A stretch of DNA of 4,772 nt from a virus (IMGVR_UViG_2645727810_000002), one strand, 5' to 3'. Counted from the stretch's first letter, positions 81 to 4,772 are shown. Notes: generated by a model not told the origin, from the letters alone. Translations and numbers: made by a program.

Positions 81-244
81 TGGTTGCCTCCTTTGCGCCA
101 CATCGCATTCAGATATTTGTTTTGATTCACTGACGGAGAAGAATTTCTCTTAAGCAATTCCTCTCTCGATGGCATTGGCTTTACGCGTTGGCGAATAATC
201 ATTTCTGCCGGAAGAATGCCGGGATTGTATGCAAGCCCTCTCAT
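77..244 (-). CDS. Hypothetical small protein (55 aa)
   Basis: ATG at 244..242 preceded by SD-like AGAGGAA with ~8-nt spacing, 16 nt after the stop of the 104-aa ORF; stop TGA at 79..77. Hand translation [55 protein letters not shown]. Absent from the ORF track (short). No homology recognised. Confidence 0.35.
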
Positions 245-260
245 GGTAAATTCCTCTTTG

Positions 261-575
261 TTAATTTATTTGTATGCCTGCTCTTTCTTCATCGAGTTTT
301 TTTAGCTTGTATCGCATAGCTCTTACTGAATAAATTGAGCGGCAGGTTGCAATTGCTATTTCTTCTGCGGAGAACTTACCGAAAAGTGATACTTCGGCTC
401 TTGTCCAGCGTCTTCCACGAAGTCGGCTAACAATGTCAGCGCCAATCCTTGTTGCTTTCGCCATTACTGCTTTTTCAGTCCTTTCCAGTTTTTCTGCGAT
501 AACTTCAACTGGCATTGTCGCCGCTACCTCGCGCAAGAAATCGACTTCCCATTTCTCCCATGGAGTCTTTTTCAT
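261..575 (-). CDS. Hypothetical phage protein with two tandem HTH-like modules (putative DNA-binding regulator)
   Basis: ORF-track 104-aa ORF with ATG start 11 nt after the stop of the upstream gene. Residues ~5-52 and ~55-102 align as an internal repeat (W...E.IA....R....V.A pattern). Family not recognised. Confidence 0.6.
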
Positions 576-586
576 AGGCGATACCG

Positions 587-1069
587 TTATTTGATAAGAA
601 GTGAAGGTTTCCCAACTTTGAGTTGAGCACCGGGGATATTTATTCCTGCTTTTAGTTGGTGTTTGATTGCCAGTTTGTCGGCTTTAATTGTCGTTTCAAA
701 CTCAACGTATTCAGGAGGAAGGGCGCTTGAGTCGATTATTTCTACAATTTCTGACGGTTTGCGGATTGTTACCTGGTGAATACCTGCTCGAATCTTTTTC
801 TTGCCAACCATTTCAAGCGATGCCGCTATATACGCCATAATGCTGTCAATCTTATTTTGAATTACTGCGGCTCGCTCATTCAGCGACCTTGCCTCTTCCT
901 TGAGGCGTTCAGCATAACCAGATTCATTTTTAATAATGGCAAGAAGTTGCTCTATTTTATCGGCAAATTCTCCTTCCATGCCTTCTATTGTGTCAGCAAT
1001 CATCTCTGGTTCTAAATCTGAATCCATCAATTTTGCGTATTCATTGGCAATTTCATACAGTTTGCTCAC
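587..1069 (-). CDS. Gp157-family-like coiled-coil phage protein (recombination-associated; possible host-nuclease inhibitor)
   Basis: ORF-track 587..1075 uses a TTG at 1075 that abuts the SD GGAGG (1080..1076); GTG at 1069..1067 has correct 6-nt spacing, so start set to 1069. The 5' end overlaps the recT 3' end by 17 nt. Helical, charged N-terminal half and beta-rich C-terminal half, ~160 aa, adjacent to recT, as typical for Siphovirus Gp157 (PF05565) or Mu Gam-like proteins. Family call is from memory. Confidence 0.6.
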   Translation of the reverse strand: MSKLYEIANEYAKLMDSDLEPEMIADTIEGMEGEFADKIEQLLAIIKNESGYAERLKEEARSLNERAAVIQNKIDSIMAYIAASLEMVGKKKIRAGIHQVTIRKPSEIVEIIDSSALPPEYVEFETTIKADKLAIKHQLKAGINIPGAQLKVGKPSLLIK

Positions 1070-1964
1070 TGGCAACCTCCAGTTTCGCTTTGCATTCTAT
1101 GTAAATGGCTTGTACGTTCTGCTGCAATTTCATTCCAGATGTCAGGCGATATGCTTCTGCAAAATATCGCTTCAAATCATCCATGTTTTCTGCATGAGCC
1201 ATTTCATCGCAAAGAAGTTGTGCTTTATCCATTATTTCCTGCTGGCGTTTCCGTTCATCTTCGCGGATATCTTCCTCTGATTTGTGCGGCATAACTGGTT
1301 CAGTCCACACACCTTCTTCTTCGTTTAGTACGTGAATAGCACTATCAAGACGTGATGCCTTAGGCCAATACTTGCTTGCACGCTTTACGACCGTCTTTCG
1401 CGCCATCTCATTCCAGTGATTTACCCATGGTCCTTTATCGCTGAATGCTGCCTTGCTTGTTTTCCTTACAGCCTCAATTTCAGCCAGACTCATCTCTTCC
1501 GTTAGATAATCACCTGCTGGCGTCTTAACTGTGCAGTAAACACCAACAATATCACCACGATCACCGAAGGCGTTGTATTTATGGGTTGGTGCTTTATCAA
1601 GCCCGTTTGACTCATAGGTATCGTTAGCTTGAACAAGTTTTGCCTGACCCCATGAGATAACACCAGACTCCATTGCAATATGGAGCAATCCCATATAACT
1701 GATATCAAGGCACACCATGCCGTCGCGCGGAACCAGATAAGCCAGTTTGCTAGCCGGGTTTAAGGTGATACCGATCGCCGCAACATTGATGATGGCGTTC
1801 TGTGCGCTGGTTGGATTTGCCAGTGCTGTTTTAGCCAGGTAATCATTTTTCTGGAAATACTGAATTGCAAACTGGCTTTCCTTAGCCCATGTCACCGTCT
1901 GTTCAGTCAATGCTCCGCAGAATAACTGCTCTTGCTGTTTAACGAATTCAACGATATTGCTCAT
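1053..1964 (-). CDS. recT: RecT-family single-strand annealing protein (phage recombinase)
   Basis: 303-aa ORF. Segment GPWVNHWNEMARKTVVKRASKYWPK closely matches the conserved RecT motif (E. coli Rac RecT ...GPWVTHWEEMAKKTAIRRLFKYLP...). SD GGAG ~7 nt upstream of ATG 1964; start overlaps the upstream stop (ATGA). Confidence 0.9.
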   Translation of the reverse strand: MSNIVEFVKQQEQLFCGALTEQTVTWAKESQFAIQYFQKNDYLAKTALANPTSAQNAIINVAAIGITLNPASKLAYLVPRDGMVCLDISYMGLLHIAMESGVISWGQAKLVQANDTYESNGLDKAPTHKYNAFGDRGDIVGVYCTVKTPAGDYLTEEMSLAEIEAVRKTSKAAFSDKGPWVNHWNEMARKTVVKRASKYWPKASRLDSAIHVLNEEEGVWTEPVMPHKSEEDIREDERKRQQEIMDKAQLLCDEMAHAENMDDLKRYFAEAYRLTSGMKLQQNVQAIYIECKAKLEVASEQTV

Positions 1965-2272
1965 GCTGCTTCTCCATAAACGTGTCTGCGTTTGAATATT
2001 GCGAAGGCATATTCAGCCTTAACTCTTTCGGTTATTGCATCCCAGAACCATTCAGCGGCTTTTTCCTGATAGTTACAGTCATAATCTTCCAGCCAGTCGA
2101 TAGCGTCCTTAGTGTGTTCATCTGGTTTATATGAGCGAAGCATTTCGCTTATTGGGTCGCAACGTTTGCAGAGGCGATCAACTTCACTGTTGATTCGTTC
2201 GTAATCTTCATCAGTAAAACTTGCGATTATTTGCGATATTTCACGCTCATCTTTCAGAGTCAGAATCATCAT
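1961..2272 (-). CDS. Hypothetical small acidic protein (103 aa) translationally coupled to recT
   Basis: ATG-ATG at 2272..2267 with SD AGGAG (2281..2277), 4 nt before the first ATG; stop overlaps the recT start. About 24 D/E versus about 15 K/R; contains a CKRC motif plus one more Cys. No family recognised. Confidence 0.65.
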   Translation of the reverse strand: MMILTLKDEREISQIIASFTDEDYERINSEVDRLCKRCDPISEMLRSYKPDEHTKDAIDWLEDYDCNYQEKAAEWFWDAITERVKAEYAFAIFKRRHVYGEAA

Positions 2273-2357
2273 CTTTCTCCTGTTCTTTGTGCTGATTGAG
2301 CATTTCTTTCATCTGAAGAATGAATTCTTCGTCTGACCAGTTATCTGTAAAACTCAT
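2247..2357 (-). CDS. Possible small ORF (36 aa) overlapping the cIII stop and the start of the 103-aa gene
   Basis: ATG at 2357..2355 overlaps the cIII-like stop (ATGA); weak SD-like AAGG ~6 nt upstream; hand translation MSFTDNWSDEEFILQMKEMLNQHKEQEKDDDSDSER; stop at 2249..2247. It overlaps the next gene by 26 nt in another frame, so may be spurious. Confidence 0.2.
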   Translation of the reverse strand: MSFTDNWSDEEFILQMKEMLNQHKEQEKDDDSDSER

Positions 2358-2524
2358 GGACGGCCTTGTTGTTTCAAAATATCCCAAAGCTTTTCGAGCA
2401 AACTTTTCATTCTTGGTTGTTTAAAGTCTGCTCCGGTTAAAATATTTTTTCGTGAATGCTGTACCGATAAAATCGGGTTGAAAGGGCGAACCGATGCCGC
2501 CCCTGCAATAGCGAACTGTTGCAT
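2354..2524 (-). CDS. cIII: CIII-like protein (putative FtsH/HflB protease inhibitor stabilising CII)
   Basis: ORF-track 2354..2629 has an implausible N-terminal extension. The internal ATG at 2524..2522 has SD AAGGAG with 6-nt spacing, giving 56 aa MQQFAIAGAASVRPFNPILSVQHSRKNILTGADFKQPRMKSLLEKLWDILKQQGRP. The MQ.AIAG start, the SLLE-containing segment and the size resemble lambda CIII as I recall it. Position in the leftward operon matches lambda cIII. Confidence 0.55.
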   Translation of the reverse strand: MQQFAIAGAASVRPFNPILSVQHSRKNILTGADFKQPRMKSLLEKLWDILKQQGRP

Positions 2525-2595
2525 AGGATGCTCCTTCTGTTTGATTGCATAACGAAAACGCCTCGAGTGAAGCGTTATTGGTATGCATATAAAAA

Positions 2596-2615
2596 GGCCC
2601 TCACACTGGAGGGCA
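2596..2615 (-). terminator. Candidate rho-independent terminator inside the leftward operon (tL1-like position)
   Basis: On the minus strand: GCCCTC-CAGTGT-GAGGGC (6-bp GC-rich stem, 6-nt loop) followed by CTTTTTATAT. Sits in the 220-bp gap between the 51-aa ORF and the cIII-like gene. Confidence 0.45.
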
Positions 2616-2676
2616 AAGAAGATTTCCAATAATCAGAACAAGTCGGCTCCTGTTTAGTTACGAGCGACATTGCTCC

Positions 2677-2704
2677 GTGTATTCACTCGTTGGAATGAAT
2701 ACAC
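2677..2704. repeat. Perfect 9-bp inverted repeat with 10-nt spacer (GTGTATTCA-N10-TGAATACAC)
   Basis: Read directly from the sequence; intergenic, upstream of the terminator hairpin in the direction of leftward transcription. No flanking T-tract, so not a canonical terminator; a protein-binding site or RNA stem-loop is possible. Confidence 0.5.
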
Positions 2705-2743
2705 AGTGCTTATTCGTCATGCATTTCAGGTATTTCTTCGTAT

Positions 2744-2899
2744 TCAACACCCCACATGTTTGTTACCCAGGATAGTTTTTTCGTACCGTTGACAAGATTC
2801 AGACCACATAAACTGACTTCCATGCGGGCGAGTTTCGATATCTGTTATCTCTCCCGGCCGAACAAAACTGGTATTCGACTTCGTTATTTTTACTTTCAT
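2744..2899 (-). CDS. Hypothetical small protein (51 aa), translationally coupled to the upstream 83-aa gene
   Basis: ATG at 2899..2897 overlaps the upstream stop (TAATG); stop TGA at 2746..2744. Hand translation MKVKITKSNTSFVRPGEITDIETRPHGSQFMWSESCQRYEKTILGNKHVGC. Not in the ORF track (short). An antisense plus-strand ORF (2756..2959) covers the same DNA and is judged the shadow. Confidence 0.35.
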   Translation of the reverse strand: MKVKITKSNTSFVRPGEITDIETRPHGSQFMWSESCQRYEKTILGNKHVGC

Positions 2900-3150
2900 T
2901 ACTCATCCCCAAGAGCTTTGCTGATTGCTGACTGTGCTTTCGATACTTCATCAGGATAATGGTCATTCCAGCTTTGCTTGTATGCCTTGTTTAGCATCGC
3001 TTGCAGAGCTTCAAGCAAATCAGGAGCTGCCTCCATCAATCTCAAATCACCACGATGTATGGTTGTATCGTCAAACGTGACATAAACACCATCATCGTTG
3101 AATCCAGTGCCAACAACACTCCACGGCCTTTTCATTCTTTCTACGGTCAT
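2899..3150 (-). CDS. Hypothetical protein (83 aa), first gene of the leftward early operon (occupies the position of lambda N but is not N-like)
   Basis: ORF-track 2899..3156 begins at a GTG that is part of the SD (GAGG 3159..3156); ATG at 3150..3148 has 5-nt spacing. Protein MTVERMKRPWSVVGTGFNDDGVYVTFDD... is net acidic with no arginine-rich motif. No family recognised. Confidence 0.6.
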   Translation of the reverse strand: MTVERMKRPWSVVGTGFNDDGVYVTFDDTTIHRGDLRLMEAAPDLLEALQAMLNKAYKQSWNDHYPDEVSKAQSAISKALGDE

Positions 3151-3322
3151 ATTCACCTCTGTTGTTTATGCCAAAAATATCTTTTTCTATATCAAAAAGC
3201 TGCTTTGCTTTTTGTGACTAAAAGCAAAAAAGCCTTCTCGCTAATGAGCAGCATTGCCGTTCATCCTGAACCCGCCGCGCTCCCGACGCATGGTTTAATG
3301 TCGCGCCGTTCGACATGGCTTA

Positions 3323-3351
3323 ACTATATTCAAAGCTATTATTGCTGTAAA
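3323..3351 (-). promoter_or_regulatory. Candidate pL-like early-left promoter
   Basis: Minus strand: -35 TTTACA (3351..3346), 17-nt spacer, -10 TATAGT (3328..3323); predicted start near 3316, giving a ~165-nt leader before the ATG at 3150. Overlaps operator-like motifs. Confidence 0.45.
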
Positions 3352-3364
3352 TAGCTATAGTTAT
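3326..3364. promoter_or_regulatory. Candidate OL operator sites (two copies/variants of the ATAGCT-NN-AGCTAT motif)
   Basis: 3351-3364 ATAGCTATAGTTAT (one mismatch to the palindrome consensus) and 3326-3339, which reads ATAGCTTTGAATAT on the minus strand (good left half, degenerate right half); centres ~25 bp apart; they overlap the candidate pL -35 and -10. Additional AT-rich palindromes nearby (AGTTAT-AAA-ATAACT at 3359-3373; AATAAC-N7-GTTATT at 3367-3385). Confidence 0.4.
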
Positions 3365-3443
3365 AAAATAACTCCTTTGGTTATTTAGTCATTGATATCT
3401 AATGTAATTTATTTTTCTTGTATGTGAGATTTGGTGTTTTTTG

Positions 3444-3476
3444 GGCAATAAAAAACCCGCAAAAAGCGGGTTTGTT
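3444..3476 (-). terminator. Rho-independent terminator immediately downstream of cI (hairpin is bidirectional, strongest for the minus-strand transcript)
   Basis: Stem AACCCGC / GCGGGTT with AAAAA loop (3454-3472). On the minus strand the hairpin is followed by TTTTTTATT; on the plus strand by TTTGTTG. Lies ~15 nt after the cI stop. Confidence 0.75.
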
Positions 3477-3490
3477 GTGGTGTGATGAGG

Positions 3491-4222
3491 TTAGTAGTCA
3501 ACTACAGACCACCAGAAGATTCTTCCGATGATCTCGATATCGCTTAGATTCTTTTCTTCTTGTGGGTATTCCAGTGAGTTAAAGCTTCTAATGCTTACCT
3601 TGTCAGGCCCTGATCGAAAGAGAATCTTAATGCGTTTCCAACCGTTCTCGTTAATGGCGTAAATCTTTCCGTCAACTATTTTCTTATCGTTGGTGTTAAC
3701 AGCAACTGTTGTTCCATCAGGAATGTTTGGCTCCATGCTGTTGCCACGAGCCGGAAAACAAACAACCCCGCTTCCATCACTGTTCGCGCCAACTCTGCGA
3801 AGGGTTGATTTGGAGAAGCGCAACATAAAGCCGTTGTGATCTTCATCAATCACCCGACCATCCCCGCATGCAAACTCAATATCTTTAAGGTAAGGAACTT
3901 CAACTTCATCACCTCTTAAAGGCGTTCCTCCATCCCATGGGTCCAAATATCCCCACGTGCTTTCATGAGGAATAGAAGATTTTGGATTATAAGGTTCAAC
4001 TCCCTCATCACGCATTGGCCCAGTCCCATCGGAAAGCCATTCCGTACGAACTCCAAGCACTTTTGATATTTCAAAAAGTTTGCGCGTATTGCGTGTTTTT
4101 CCAGACGTAAGTTTCCAGACGCTTGGCTGAGACATGCCAACAGCATTGCCAAGAGAAGCCTGAGTAAACCCAGCCTGATCCATCGCGTATGTAAGCCTTT
4201 GAGAAAAAGTATCTAGTTTCAT
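3491..4222 (-). CDS. cI: CI-like phage repressor (N-terminal HTH DNA-binding domain plus C-terminal LexA/S24-type autopeptidase domain)
   Basis: 243-aa ORF. HTH-like segment QASLGNAVGMSQPSVWKL; S24 signature G-N-S-M (putative nucleophile Ser162) and W-K-R-I-K ~35 residues later (putative general base Lys196), matching the LexA/CI/UmuD Ser-Lys dyad spacing. Divergent from a cro-like gene across an operator-rich intergenic region. Confidence 0.9.
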   Translation of the reverse strand: MKLDTFSQRLTYAMDQAGFTQASLGNAVGMSQPSVWKLTSGKTRNTRKLFEISKVLGVRTEWLSDGTGPMRDEGVEPYNPKSSIPHESTWGYLDPWDGGTPLRGDEVEVPYLKDIEFACGDGRVIDEDHNGFMLRFSKSTLRRVGANSDGSGVVCFPARGNSMEPNIPDGTTVAVNTNDKKIVDGKIYAINENGWKRIKILFRSGPDKVSIRSFNSLEYPQEEKNLSDIEIIGRIFWWSVVDY

Positions 4223-4228
4223 TCGTAC

Positions 4229-4257
4229 AACCTATAGCTACAGCTATTATTAGTCAA
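4229..4257 (-). promoter_or_regulatory. Candidate pRM-like promoter giving a leaderless cI transcript
   Basis: Minus strand: -35 TTGACT (4257..4252), 17-nt spacer, -10 TAGGTT (4234..4229); the cI ATG (4222) lies ~6-7 nt downstream of the -10, and there is no SD. Same arrangement as lambda pRM/cI. Confidence 0.45.
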
Positions 4258-4296
4258 ATACCTAAAGCTATTTACTTTCTGAATAGCTTTGGCTAT
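4234..4296. promoter_or_regulatory. Tripartite operator (OR-like): three 14-bp inverted repeats, consensus ATAGCT-NN-AGCTAT
   Basis: Site at 4234-4247 ATAGCTACAGCTAT (perfect 6+2+6 inverted repeat), 4258-4271 ATACCTAAAGCTAT (1 mismatch), 4283-4296 ATAGCTTTGGCTAT (1 mismatch); centres 24 and 25 bp apart, between divergent cI and cro. Confidence 0.6.
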
Positions 4297-4299
4297 TAT
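4271..4299 (+). promoter_or_regulatory. Candidate pR-like promoter for cro
   Basis: -35 TTTACT (4271-4276), 17-nt spacer, -10 TATTAT (4294-4299). The third operator overlaps the -10/spacer and the second overlaps the -35. The cro SD AGGAG (4318-4322) is followed by ATG 4331. Confidence 0.5.
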
Positions 4300-4330
4300 T
4301 CTGATTGTGAATTCAGCAGGAGTTATTTTT

Positions 4331-4561
4331 ATGGTCAACGAGGCTATTAAAGCGGCTATTGACTCAGTAGGAAGTCAGCAAAAGTTAGCTAATGCCTGCG
4401 GTGTTAAGCAGCCGTCTGTATGGGCTTGGTTGCATGGGAAGAAAAGGGTATCCGCTGAAAATGCCAAGCGCATTGAAATGGCTACCAATGGAAGCGTCCC
4501 TGCATACCTGATTCGCCCTGATTTATCCGCTTTGTTCCCCAATCCGAACAAAGCAGCTTAA
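4331..4561 (+). CDS. cro: Cro-like / YdaS-family HTH transcriptional regulator (76 aa)
   Basis: ORF-track 4289..4561 starts at a TTG inside the operator region; ATG 4331 with SD AGGAG 8 nt upstream is the likely start. HTH-like QQKLANACGVKQPSVWAWLHGKKRVSAENAKRIE; small size; divergent from cI. Confidence 0.8.
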   Translation: MVNEAIKAAIDSVGSQQKLANACGVKQPSVWAWLHGKKRVSAENAKRIEMATNGSVPAYLIRPDLSALFPNPNKAA

Positions 4562-4574
4562 TAAAGCAAATTTT

Positions 4575-4626
4575 TATACCGAACGGCCCGGTATACGGTC
4601 GGGTGCCCGGCGTGGTCATGGATGAC
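4575..4626 (+). promoter_or_regulatory. Stem-loop and palindrome cluster just downstream of cro (candidate nutR/tR1-like or protein-binding element)
   Basis: TATACCG-AACGGCC-CGGTATA (7-bp stem, 4575-4595) followed by a GC-rich stretch and the palindrome GTCAT-GG-ATGAC (4615-4626). No adjacent T-tract, so not a canonical intrinsic terminator. Confidence 0.35.
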
Positions 4627-4680
4627 TGTCAATGGTGCACAATAAAAAACCAAATTATTTACCTATGGAAATAGTAAGAA

Positions 4681-4772
4681 ATGGAACAAACAAGTTACAG
4701 CAAACTATCACAGCGTGACGTTGATCGCGCAGAAACAGATTTACTCATCAACCTGTCAACGCTTACCCAGCG
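4681..4772 (+). CDS. Hypothetical protein, N-terminal fragment (possible CII-like regulator; continues past the right edge)
   Basis: ATG 4681 with weak SD-like AAGAA upstream; frame open to the window end (MEQTSYSKLSQRDVDRAETDLLINLSTLTQ...). Follows cro as cII does in lambda. Identity not established. Confidence 0.35.
   Translation, partial: MEQTSYSKLSQRDVDRAETDLLINLSTLTQ

What the first reader, a model, noticed from the sequence alone, without database searches (positions are those of the whole stretch)
2525..3350. Early-left operon has an internal terminator but no recognisable N-like antiterminator
In lambda the first pL gene is N (arginine-rich motif protein), which reads through tL1. 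Here the first two genes (83 aa and 51 aa) are acidic or neutral with no arginine-rich N-terminus, yet a plausible intrinsic terminator (2596-2615) separates them from cIII, recT and the other downstream genes. Either antitermination is done by a non-N mechanism (an RNA-based put-like element as in HK022, or a novel factor among the two small proteins), or the downstream genes have their own promoter. The two small proteins are unrecognised and sit where regulators usually are.
Basis: partly seen in the sequence, partly recalled or inferred. Interest (0 to 1): 0.6.

Follow-up and report, generated by a model that had tools for sequence, protein, structure and literature searches.

The report
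HK022-type put RNA replaces N
This phage has no N protein because it carries near-exact copies of the HK022 putL and putR RNAs, which make RNA polymerase ignore terminators on their own, and the internal terminator is lambda's tL2a, the 3' end of the known PreS small RNA, so the puzzle has an ordinary, already described answer.

Summary
The minus strand carries pL, then an 83-aa and a 51-aa ORF without an arginine-rich motif. A good intrinsic terminator follows (stem 2597-2614 plus U-tract), then cIII and recT. No N, Nun or boxA is present.

Window 3317->3244 (minus) is HK022 putL. It is identical to HK022 from position 4 through the mapped C94/U95 pause, except for two compensatory A-U to U-A swaps (pairs 3-19 and 5-17). 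It starts at the predicted pL start site. putR (4579-4640, plus) lies about 273 nt downstream of pR, as in HK022. HK022 put RNAs bind the RNA polymerase beta' zinc-binding domain and suppress terminators without any phage protein.

The terminator is lambda tL2a. Window 2597-2709 is identical to lambda and encodes the Hfq-dependent sRNA PreS/LPR1.

The two small proteins are cargo. In Sf101 and an E. coli prophage they lie downstream of N. The 51-aa ORF is a frameshift-truncated allele of a 62-aa family.

Most put-bearing viral contigs lack nun.

Verdict: already known mechanism, in a new mosaic. Interest is low.

The parts
3323..3351 (-). pL promoter (-35 TTTACA, 17-nt spacer, -10 TATAGT)
   Evidence: Best promoter-like match in the window, 10 of 12. 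It lines up with the annotated HK022/HK75 pL -35 TTTACA. The predicted start is at 3316/3317, which is putL position 1-2.
3244..3317 (-). putL antiterminator RNA (positions 1-74 in the HK022 numbering)
   Evidence: Identical to HK022 putL from position 4 onward, except pairs 3-19 and 5-17, which are A-U in HK022 and U-A here. A9-G35, G12-U32, G42-U65, G43-A64, C44-A63, U68 and the -10-like AACCAT at +23..+28 are all kept. Numbering and pairs come from PMC9378689. The HK75 record annotates the homologous stretch as the putL site.
3193..3238 (-). AT-rich hairpin plus U5 directly after putL; its 5' arm holds the put-sensitive pause site C94/U95 (window 3224/3223)
   Evidence: Fold of -17 kcal/mol. 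The first 100 putL positions, including the pause, are identical to HK022 from position 4 apart from positions 5, 17 and 19, and the 3185-3322 leader as a whole is 96.4% identical. The pause position is taken from PMC9378689.
2899..3150 (-). Gene 1, 83 aa, acidic, unknown function (phrog_1273; precomputed Pfam PF27050)
   Evidence: AlphaFold2 model with pLDDT 72, a beta-hairpin plus a helical hairpin. No PDB fold match, best E = 4. The gene lies downstream of N in Sf101 and in E. coli strain HCP17S3.
2744..2899 (-). Gene 2, 51-aa frameshift-truncated allele of a 62-aa family (phrog_10407); the extra A is in the A6 run at 2776-2781; the lost C-terminus is still readable in the ORF that ends at 2710
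   Evidence: PHROG profile positions 1-42 match the 51-aa ORF and positions 40-62 match the overlapping 37-aa ORF. The A6 versus A5 difference shows in the alignment. The intact 62-aa homologue is P0122 and the truncated allele is P0121. L038 carries the same allele.
2669..2706 (-). 14-bp hairpin at the 5' edge of the conserved PreS block
   Evidence: -18.8 kcal/mol. The 2590-2712 region folds with z = -5.1. It is identical in lambda and is split by IS903 in HK022.
2591..2678 (-). PreS/LPR1-like Hfq-dependent sRNA. The 5' end is inferred by counting about 88 nt back from the terminator U-tract.
   Evidence: Window 2587-2709 is 97.6% identical to lambda 33923-34045. It is identical from 2709 down to the end of the terminator stem. 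In lambda, LPR1/PreS is about 88 nt (processed to about 68 nt), lies between ea10 and ral, and ends at tL2a (bioRxiv 10.1101/2024.10.31.621285).
2587..2614 (-).
   Evidence: Annotated as a terminator in HK75 and mEpX1. Named tL2a in the PreS paper.
2547..2576 (-). Second terminator-like hairpin (AACGCTTCACTCGAGGCGTT plus TTCGTTAT) just upstream of the cIII ribosome-binding site
   Evidence: -9.9 kcal/mol. Annotated as a terminator in HK75. About 79% similar to the lambda region upstream of cIII.
2354..2524 (-). cIII (56 aa)
   Evidence: phrog_550 'CIII', E 1e-22.
4579..4640 (+). putR antiterminator RNA core
   Evidence: One difference from HK022 putR, in the stem II loop. Aligns with the annotated HK75 putR. 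About 273 nt downstream of the predicted pR start (promoter-like site 4271-4299), which matches the published figure of about 270 nt.
3491..4222 (-). cI-like repressor (HTH plus S24 peptidase); its immunity type differs from HK022
   Evidence: Pfam Peptidase_S24 3.7e-15 and HTH_3. There is no DNA match to HK022 cI. 98-99% identical to APC_JM3.2 and PDP110P2.
4331..4561 (+). cro-like repressor
   Evidence: Pfam YdaS_toxin 1.6e-19 and P22_Cro 8e-8.

Best explanation
Antitermination of the early-left operon is done in cis by an HK022-type put RNA, not by a protein. Transcription from pL (start about 3316/3317) first makes the roughly 74-nt putL RNA (3317->3244). [quoted passage not shown] It holds that polymerase in a non-swiveled, pause-resistant state and travels with it. 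The polymerase then reads through the tL2a-like terminator at 2614-2587 and the hairpin at 2576-2557 into cIII, recT and beyond. putR (4579-4640) does the same for the pR operon. The terminator itself is the lambda tL2a homologue. The polymerases that do stop there, or processing of the long transcript, release the Hfq-dependent sRNA PreS/LPR1, which in lambda raises dnaN translation. The 83-aa and 51-aa genes are swappable cargo occupying the slot that nun fills in HK022. Shown here: sequence identity, retained base pairs with compensatory changes, position relative to the promoters, and absence of N, Nun and nut. Inferred: activity in this phage.
For: HK022 matches the window in only three kinds of place: the pL leader (3185-3322, 96.4%), the post-cro region (4572-4772, 92.6%) and the nun-cIII spacer (2531-2709, 97%). 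The window's putL and putR align with HK022 putL and putR. Using the cryo-EM paper's numbering, every pair and critical residue is retained, and pairs 3-19 and 5-17 changed on both sides from A-U to U-A. Across 35 unique putL variants from viral contigs, pair 5-17 is U-A in 30 and A-U in 5. Pair 3-19 is U-A in 13, A-U in 6 and A.A in 16. All other stem pairs are essentially invariant. The window's variant is the commonest. putL begins at the predicted pL start and putR about 273 nt after pR, as published for HK022. The HK75 record annotates the homologous stretches as putL, putR and two terminators. No N, Nun or boxA is present. put suppresses intrinsic and rho-dependent terminators without phage proteins, at distances of 10 kb or more (PMC9378689). 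The same downstream module (window 96-2710, 97.8% identical) is served by N in mEpX1, so the antitermination module is exchangeable. The tL2a/PreS identity rests.
Against: Nothing was measured in this phage. The fold programs do not recover the put structure as unusually stable (z = +0.2 and +0.6). That is expected for an RNA with a triplex and non-canonical pairs that folds on the polymerase, but it means thermodynamic prediction adds no support. The two 5'-helix changes and the slightly different start-site context (-10 TATAGT; first bases CA rather than AU) are untested. The termination efficiency of tL2a in this context is unknown.
Confidence: 0.9

Rival explanations
1. One of the two small proteins (83 aa or 51/62 aa) is a novel protein antiterminator, or a cofactor that put needs.
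For: They sit first in the pL operon, where N or Nun usually lies. Both are of unknown function, with no informative Pfam, PADLOC or PDB fold match.
Against: Both genes occur at 98.9% identity in an E. coli prophage that encodes its own N and Nun upstream, and the 83-aa gene also lies downstream of N and ral in Sf101. The closest put phage with the same immunity region, APC_JM3.2, has a different first gene after putL. Across put-bearing contigs the first gene is highly variable, including HNH endonuclease, Nun and several unknowns. That fits a mechanism that needs no specific protein, as shown for HK022. Gene 1 is acidic without an arginine-rich motif, and gene 2 is a truncated allele.
Confidence: 0.03
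2. cIII, recT and the other downstream genes are expressed from their own promoter below the terminator, so no antitermination is needed.
For: A weak promoter-like match exists on the minus strand at 2351-2324 (9 of 12), but it lies downstream of cIII.
Against: No promoter-like site lies on the minus strand between 2525 and 2900. The window holds fewer promoter-like sites overall than shuffled sequence (7 against 9.3). In lambda the homologous region is transcribed from pL, and PreS appears only in the lytic cycle. The presence of both putL and putR argues for processive readthrough.
Confidence: 0.04
3. The hairpin at 2597-2614 functions mainly as the 3' end and Hfq-binding module of the PreS sRNA and terminates only weakly, so antitermination matters little at this site.
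For: A GC-rich stem plus poly-U is the classic Hfq sRNA 3' module, and lambda PreS ends there. The stem has only 6 bp (-10.7 kcal/mol) and the U-run is interrupted (CUUUUUAUAU).
Against: The site is described as tL2a, one of the termination sites of the lambda early-left operon, and is annotated as a terminator in two phage records. This reading adds to the put explanation and does not compete with it.
Confidence: 0.25

Closest known systems
Phage HK022 putL/putR (polymerase-utilization) antiterminator RNAs; also annotated in HK75
   Same: The sequence is nearly the same (putL identical from position 4 apart from two compensatory pairs; putR has one loop change). The positions relative to pL and pR match. 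The put-sensitive pause site, the flanking tL2a-type terminators and cIII are also the same, and there is no N gene or nut site.
   Different: The immunity region is different (cI, cro and operators are unrelated to HK022). There is no nun; two unrelated small genes fill that slot. There is no IS903 insertion. Downstream is a RecT-type recombination module rather than an Erf-like one.
Lambda tL2a terminator / PreS (LPR1) Hfq-dependent sRNA
   Same: Identical over the sRNA body and terminator stem. It sits in the pL operon upstream of cIII.
   Different: The U-tail differs (CCTTTTTATAT against CGATTTTTTAT). In lambda the ea10 gene separates it from cIII, whereas here it abuts the cIII leader. 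Here it is read through by put-modified rather than N-modified polymerase (inferred).
Lambda N / nut antitermination
   Same: The same operon logic applies: terminators inside pL and pR operons are overcome by a polymerase modification set up near the promoter. The downstream module is shared at 97.8% with the N-encoding phage mEpX1.
   Different: There is no arginine-rich protein, no boxA or boxB, and no homologue of lambda-, Sf101- or mEpX1-type N.
Escherichia phage APC_JM3.2 and Wanchaivirus PDP110P2
   Same: The block 3180-4772 (putL, cI, cro, putR) is 98-99% identical, and APC_JM3.2 has no annotated nun in this region (PDP110P2 has no annotation).
   Different: Different cargo genes lie downstream of putL. 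The mosaic junction is at about window 3180.

Membership tests
HK022-type put antiterminator RNA | Sequence homology to the experimentally defined HK022 putL and putR | tested here: met
   The leader is 96.4% identical and the post-cro region 92.6%. Over positions 1-100, only positions 1-3, 5, 17 and 19 of putL differ, and putR has one difference in its core.
HK022-type put antiterminator RNA | Two-stem structure with the A9-G35 junction pair, G12-U32, G42-U65/G43-A64/C44-A63, the U68 bulge and the 5' duplex 3-7/15-19 | tested here: met
   All are retained. Pairs 3-19 and 5-17 show compensatory A-U to U-A changes. Covariation at these pairs is seen across 35 variants. The pair list is from PMC9378689. 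Single-sequence folding does not reproduce the structure.
HK022-type put antiterminator RNA | Position: putL at the start of the pL transcript, putR about 270 nt downstream of the pR start | tested here: met
   The pL -10 ends at 3323 and putL position 1 is at 3317. The pR -10 ends at 4299 and putR starts at 4579, about 273 nt from the start. These are predicted promoters, not mapped start sites.
HK022-type put antiterminator RNA | Protein-independent antitermination that depends on the RNAP beta' zinc-binding domain | not testable with these tools
   Needs reporter or in vitro transcription assays and rpoC mutants.
Lambda N / nut antitermination | An arginine-rich-motif N protein encoded first in the pL operon | tested here: not met
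   tblastn with three N types and Nun gave a best E of 0.89. The first two ORFs have at most 2 R per 15 aa.
Lambda N / nut antitermination | A nut site (boxA CGCTCTTTA plus a boxB hairpin) in the leader | tested here: not met
   No boxA within 1 mismatch anywhere in the window. boxB was not searched for separately.
HK022 Nun exclusion factor | A nun homologue downstream of putL | tested here: not met
   No tblastn hit. The first ORFs after putL are gene 1 and gene 2.
PreS/LPR1 sRNA (lambda) | At least 92% identity to lambda LPR1 with no more than 3 gaps (the conservation criterion used in the paper) | tested here: met
   Identical to lambda from 2709 to the end of the terminator stem. 97.6% over 123 nt.
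PreS/LPR1 sRNA (lambda) | A GC-rich terminator hairpin plus poly-U at the 3' end (tL2a) | tested here: met
PreS/LPR1 sRNA (lambda) | Expression, Hfq binding and dnaN regulation | not testable with these tools
   Needs northern blots, RIL-seq or reporter assays.

The most novel reading that the evidence does not exclude
The position immediately downstream of putL is a hot-swappable cargo slot. It holds Nun in HK022, an HNH endonuclease or several unknown genes in other contigs, and the 83-aa plus 62-aa pair here. Under this reading the pair would be a new superinfection-exclusion or host-takeover function analogous to Nun, expressed first and put-independently after induction. A second part of the reading is that put-type rather than N-type antitermination changes how much PreS sRNA is released at tL2a.
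Probability: 0.15. Interest if true: 0.4.

Novelty: already known. Interest (0 to 1): 0.15.

Why it matters
The apparent paradox of terminators without an antiterminator protein has a textbook answer, so the finding opens no new question. It has modest practical value in three ways. First, put elements are unannotated in RefSeq E. coli genomes (38 of 5,426 carry this putL leader, with no feature under the match) and no Rfam family matched either put element, so annotation pipelines and sequence-only readers will keep flagging such operons as lacking antitermination. Second, most put-bearing viral contigs lack nun, so put and nun are separable modules and HK022 is not the typical arrangement. 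Third, the PreS sRNA/tL2a block travels with both N-type and put-type phages.

Tried and rejected
- An Rfam scan of the whole window at E <= 1 gave only three sub-threshold hits, all on the cI terminator. No family matched put or PreS.
- Single-sequence folding of putL and putR gave no stability signal (z = +0.2 and +0.6), so it is uninformative for this RNA.
- For the two small proteins, Pfam gave nothing significant, PHROGs gave only unknown-function families and PADLOC gave nothing.
- No complete E. coli genome covers 80% or more of window 2500-3500, so the exact mosaic is absent there.
- The lambda records held here carry no terminator features. The tL2a name therefore rests on the PreS preprint.
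- A literature search for putL plus putR returned mostly unrelated papers. No comparative survey of nun-less put phages was found in the searchable library.
- Programmed frameshifting in gene 2 was considered and set aside. Intact A5 alleles exist and the truncated allele is simply the rarer one.

Full report
**Anatomy.** The window is a lambdoid immunity region.
- A cI-like repressor with HTH and S24 peptidase domains lies at 3491-4222 (minus strand). A strong terminator follows it at 3473-3453.
- A cro-like gene lies at 4331-4561 (plus strand).
- The best promoter-like site in the window is on the minus strand at 3351-3323: TTTACA, 17 nt, TATAGT. This is pL.
- Downstream on the minus strand come an 83-aa ORF (3150->2899), a 51-aa ORF (2899->2744), a roughly 190-nt non-coding stretch, cIII (2524->2354; phrog_550, E 1e-22) and a recombination module. 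That module includes recT and is 97.8% identical to phage mEpX1 over window 96-2710.

**Observation check.**
- Its stem is GCCCTC/GAGGGC at 2614-2597, followed by CTTTTTATAT, at -10.7 kcal/mol.
- The HK75 and mEpX1 records annotate the homologous site as a terminator.
- A second terminator-like hairpin lies at 2576-2557, and a 14-bp hairpin at about 2706-2669.
- Neither small ORF has an arginine-rich motif.
- Six-frame searches with three N types and Nun find nothing, and there is no boxA.
- Two corrections apply. The 51-aa product is mildly basic (pI 9.2). It is also a frameshift-truncated allele of a 62-aa family: its residues 1-42 match positions 1-42 of phrog_10407, and the overlapping 37-aa ORF supplies positions 40-62. 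The cause is an A6 run at 2776-2781 where an E. coli prophage has A5. Intact 62-aa homologues exist, such as P0122.

**What supplies antitermination.** Megablast against phage records shows that HK022, HK75 and O276 match the window only in short pieces.
- Mapped precisely, these are 3185-3322 (the pL leader, 96.4%), 4572-4772 (downstream of cro, 92.6%) and 2531-2709 (the nun-cIII spacer, 97%).
- The first two are the HK022 putL and putR regions. A four-way alignment shows the shared put core.
- The numbering of the cryo-EM study of the put-RNAP complex (PMC9378689) fits the HK022 sequence exactly. In that numbering the window's putL runs 3317->3244.
- It is identical to HK022 from position 4 through position 100, which includes the put-sensitive pause at C94/U95. 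The exceptions are positions 5, 17 and 19. Together with position 3, they convert pairs 3-19 and 5-17 from A-U to U-A.
- These two pairs belong to the 5' duplex (A3-G7 with C15-U19) that the cryo-EM structure revealed, so the changes are compensatory.
- Every residue reported as critical is unchanged: A9-G35, G12-U32, G43-A64 and U68. The -10-like AACCAT at +23..+28 is also unchanged.
- putR (4579-4640) differs from HK022 at one loop base. Compared with putL it keeps stem pairs through changes on both sides: 14-30, 37-71 and 40-67 (read from the sequences).
- putL begins at the predicted pL start, and putR begins about 273 nt after the predicted pR start. The paper states the same arrangement for HK022.
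- The HK75 GenBank record annotates the homologous stretches as the putL site and putR site.

**Mechanism, by homology.** According to PMC9378689, put RNA acts alone.
- It suppresses intrinsic and rho-dependent terminators at distances of 10 kb or more.
- HK022 has no N-like factor.
- Applied here, polymerases starting at pL acquire putL within the first 74 nt. They then read through the hairpins at 2614-2587 and 2576-2557 into cIII and recT. putR does the same for the rightward operon.
- These steps are inferred. Nothing was measured for this phage.

**The terminator is also an sRNA end.** Window 2587-2709 is 97.6% identical to lambda 33923-34045, between ea10 and ral.
- In a five-way alignment the window is identical to lambda from 2709 to the end of the terminator stem. 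Only the U-tail differs.
- A preprint on lambda sRNAs (10.1101/2024.10.31.621285) shows that this lambda region encodes LPR1/PreS. It is an Hfq-dependent sRNA of about 88 nt, processed to about 68 nt, and its GC-rich hairpin plus poly-U is tL2a of the early-left operon.
- PreS is expressed in the lytic cycle, activates dnaN translation, and is conserved at 92% or more in over 2,500 genomes.
- The structured block here (z = -5.1) is therefore a PreS homologue. The same block is present in 325 phage records.
- In HK022 an IS903 copy splits the hairpin at its 5' edge.

**The two small proteins.** The 83-aa protein belongs to a widespread enterobacterial prophage family of unknown function: phrog_1273, and precomputed Pfam PF27050, which the local Pfam scan did not report.
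- An AlphaFold2 model (pLDDT 72) shows a beta-hairpin and a helical hairpin. It has no significant PDB neighbour, and PADLOC gives nothing.
- Context is the telling evidence. In Sf101 the 83-aa gene lies downstream of N and ral.
- In E. coli strain HCP17S3 both genes, at 98.9% identity, lie downstream of an mEpX1-type N, a Nun and an Nmad5-family gene.
- The closest put phages with the same immunity region, APC_JM3.2 and PDP110P2 (98-99% over 3180-4772), break homology at about 3180, just after the put leader, and APC_JM3.2 carries different genes there.
- The two genes are exchangeable cargo, not part of the antitermination device.

**Survey of put elements.** A pattern for the put core found 105 stretches in IMG/VR, of which 80 were returned as loci. 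They gave 69 putL-type and 78 putR-type elements, usually paired around an immunity region.
- The window's putL variant is the commonest.
- The first gene after putL is Nun-like in 11 cases, which count HK022 and HK75 twice each. It is something else in 52 cases.
- The largest groups are an HNH endonuclease, a 151-aa unknown, Nun, a 75-aa unknown and a zinc-ribbon peptide. Only Nun has an arginine-rich motif.
- One contig, L038, is 99.7% identical to the window and shares the frameshift.
- Among 5,426 complete E. coli genomes, 38 carry this putL leader, with no annotation under the match. None carries the window's exact mosaic.

**Rivals.**
- A private promoter for cIII and recT finds no support. 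There is no promoter-like site on the minus strand between 2525 and 2900.
- A protein antiterminator among the small ORFs is contradicted by their context and by the variability of the slot.
- The reading that the tL2a hairpin serves chiefly as the PreS 3' module is compatible with the put explanation.

**Verdict.** The mechanism and the terminator are both already described, and what is new is only this particular mosaic. Interest is low.

Noticed in passing
window 2776-2781 (gene 2, 2744-2899, minus strand): The 51-aa ORF is a +1 frameshift allele (A6 here, A5 elsewhere) of a 62-aa phage protein family (phrog_10407). The same truncated allele occurs in viral contig L038 and in protein cluster P0121, so it is probably a real mutation rather than a sequencing error.
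   Followed up: yes
window 2591-2709 (minus strand): A homologue of the lambda Hfq-dependent sRNA PreS/LPR1 that ends at the tL2a terminator. It is identical to lambda apart from the U-tail. Rfam reported nothing for it. In HK022 an IS903 insertion splits the hairpin at its 5' edge.
   Followed up: yes
loci L009-L099 (IMG/VR contigs with put elements): Most put-bearing contigs have no nun. The gene directly after putL varies widely: an HNH_3 endonuclease in 14 loci, a 151-aa unknown in 11, Nun in 10, a 75-aa unknown in 7 and a zinc-ribbon 59-aa peptide in 6. This suggests a cargo slot.
   Followed up: partly
window 3193-3238 (minus strand): An AT-rich imperfect 13-bp hairpin followed by U5 lies directly after putL, within the leader segment that is 96.4% identical to HK022. 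The 1989 HK022 record labelled the equivalent stretch a 'put. nutL equivalent'. Its 5' arm contains the mapped put-sensitive pause (C94/U95, window 3224/3223). Whether it terminates unmodified polymerase was not examined.
   Followed up: partly
window 3333-3365 and 4236-4300: Operator-like repeats with AGCTAT/ATAGCT cores flank pL and pR. They differ from the HK022 operators, so the immunity specificity is different. This was read by eye only.
   Followed up: no
window 3180 and 2710: Sharp mosaic junctions. Homology to APC_JM3.2 and PDP110P2 ends at about 3180, just after the put leader. Homology to HK022, lambda and mEpX1 resumes at about 2709-2710, at a short motif (CGAATAAGCACTGTG) shared by several otherwise unrelated upstream genes.
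   Followed up: partly
E. coli complete genomes, hits H53-H60: The putL leader occurs in 38 of 5,426 complete E. coli genomes, 26 of them at 99% identity or more. RefSeq has no annotated feature under the match.
   Followed up: partly
window 2557-2576 (minus strand): A hairpin plus T-tract lies immediately upstream of the cIII ribosome-binding site. HK75 annotates it as a second terminator, and it is about 79% similar to the lambda cIII upstream region. It could also take part in the known structural control of cIII translation.
   Followed up: no
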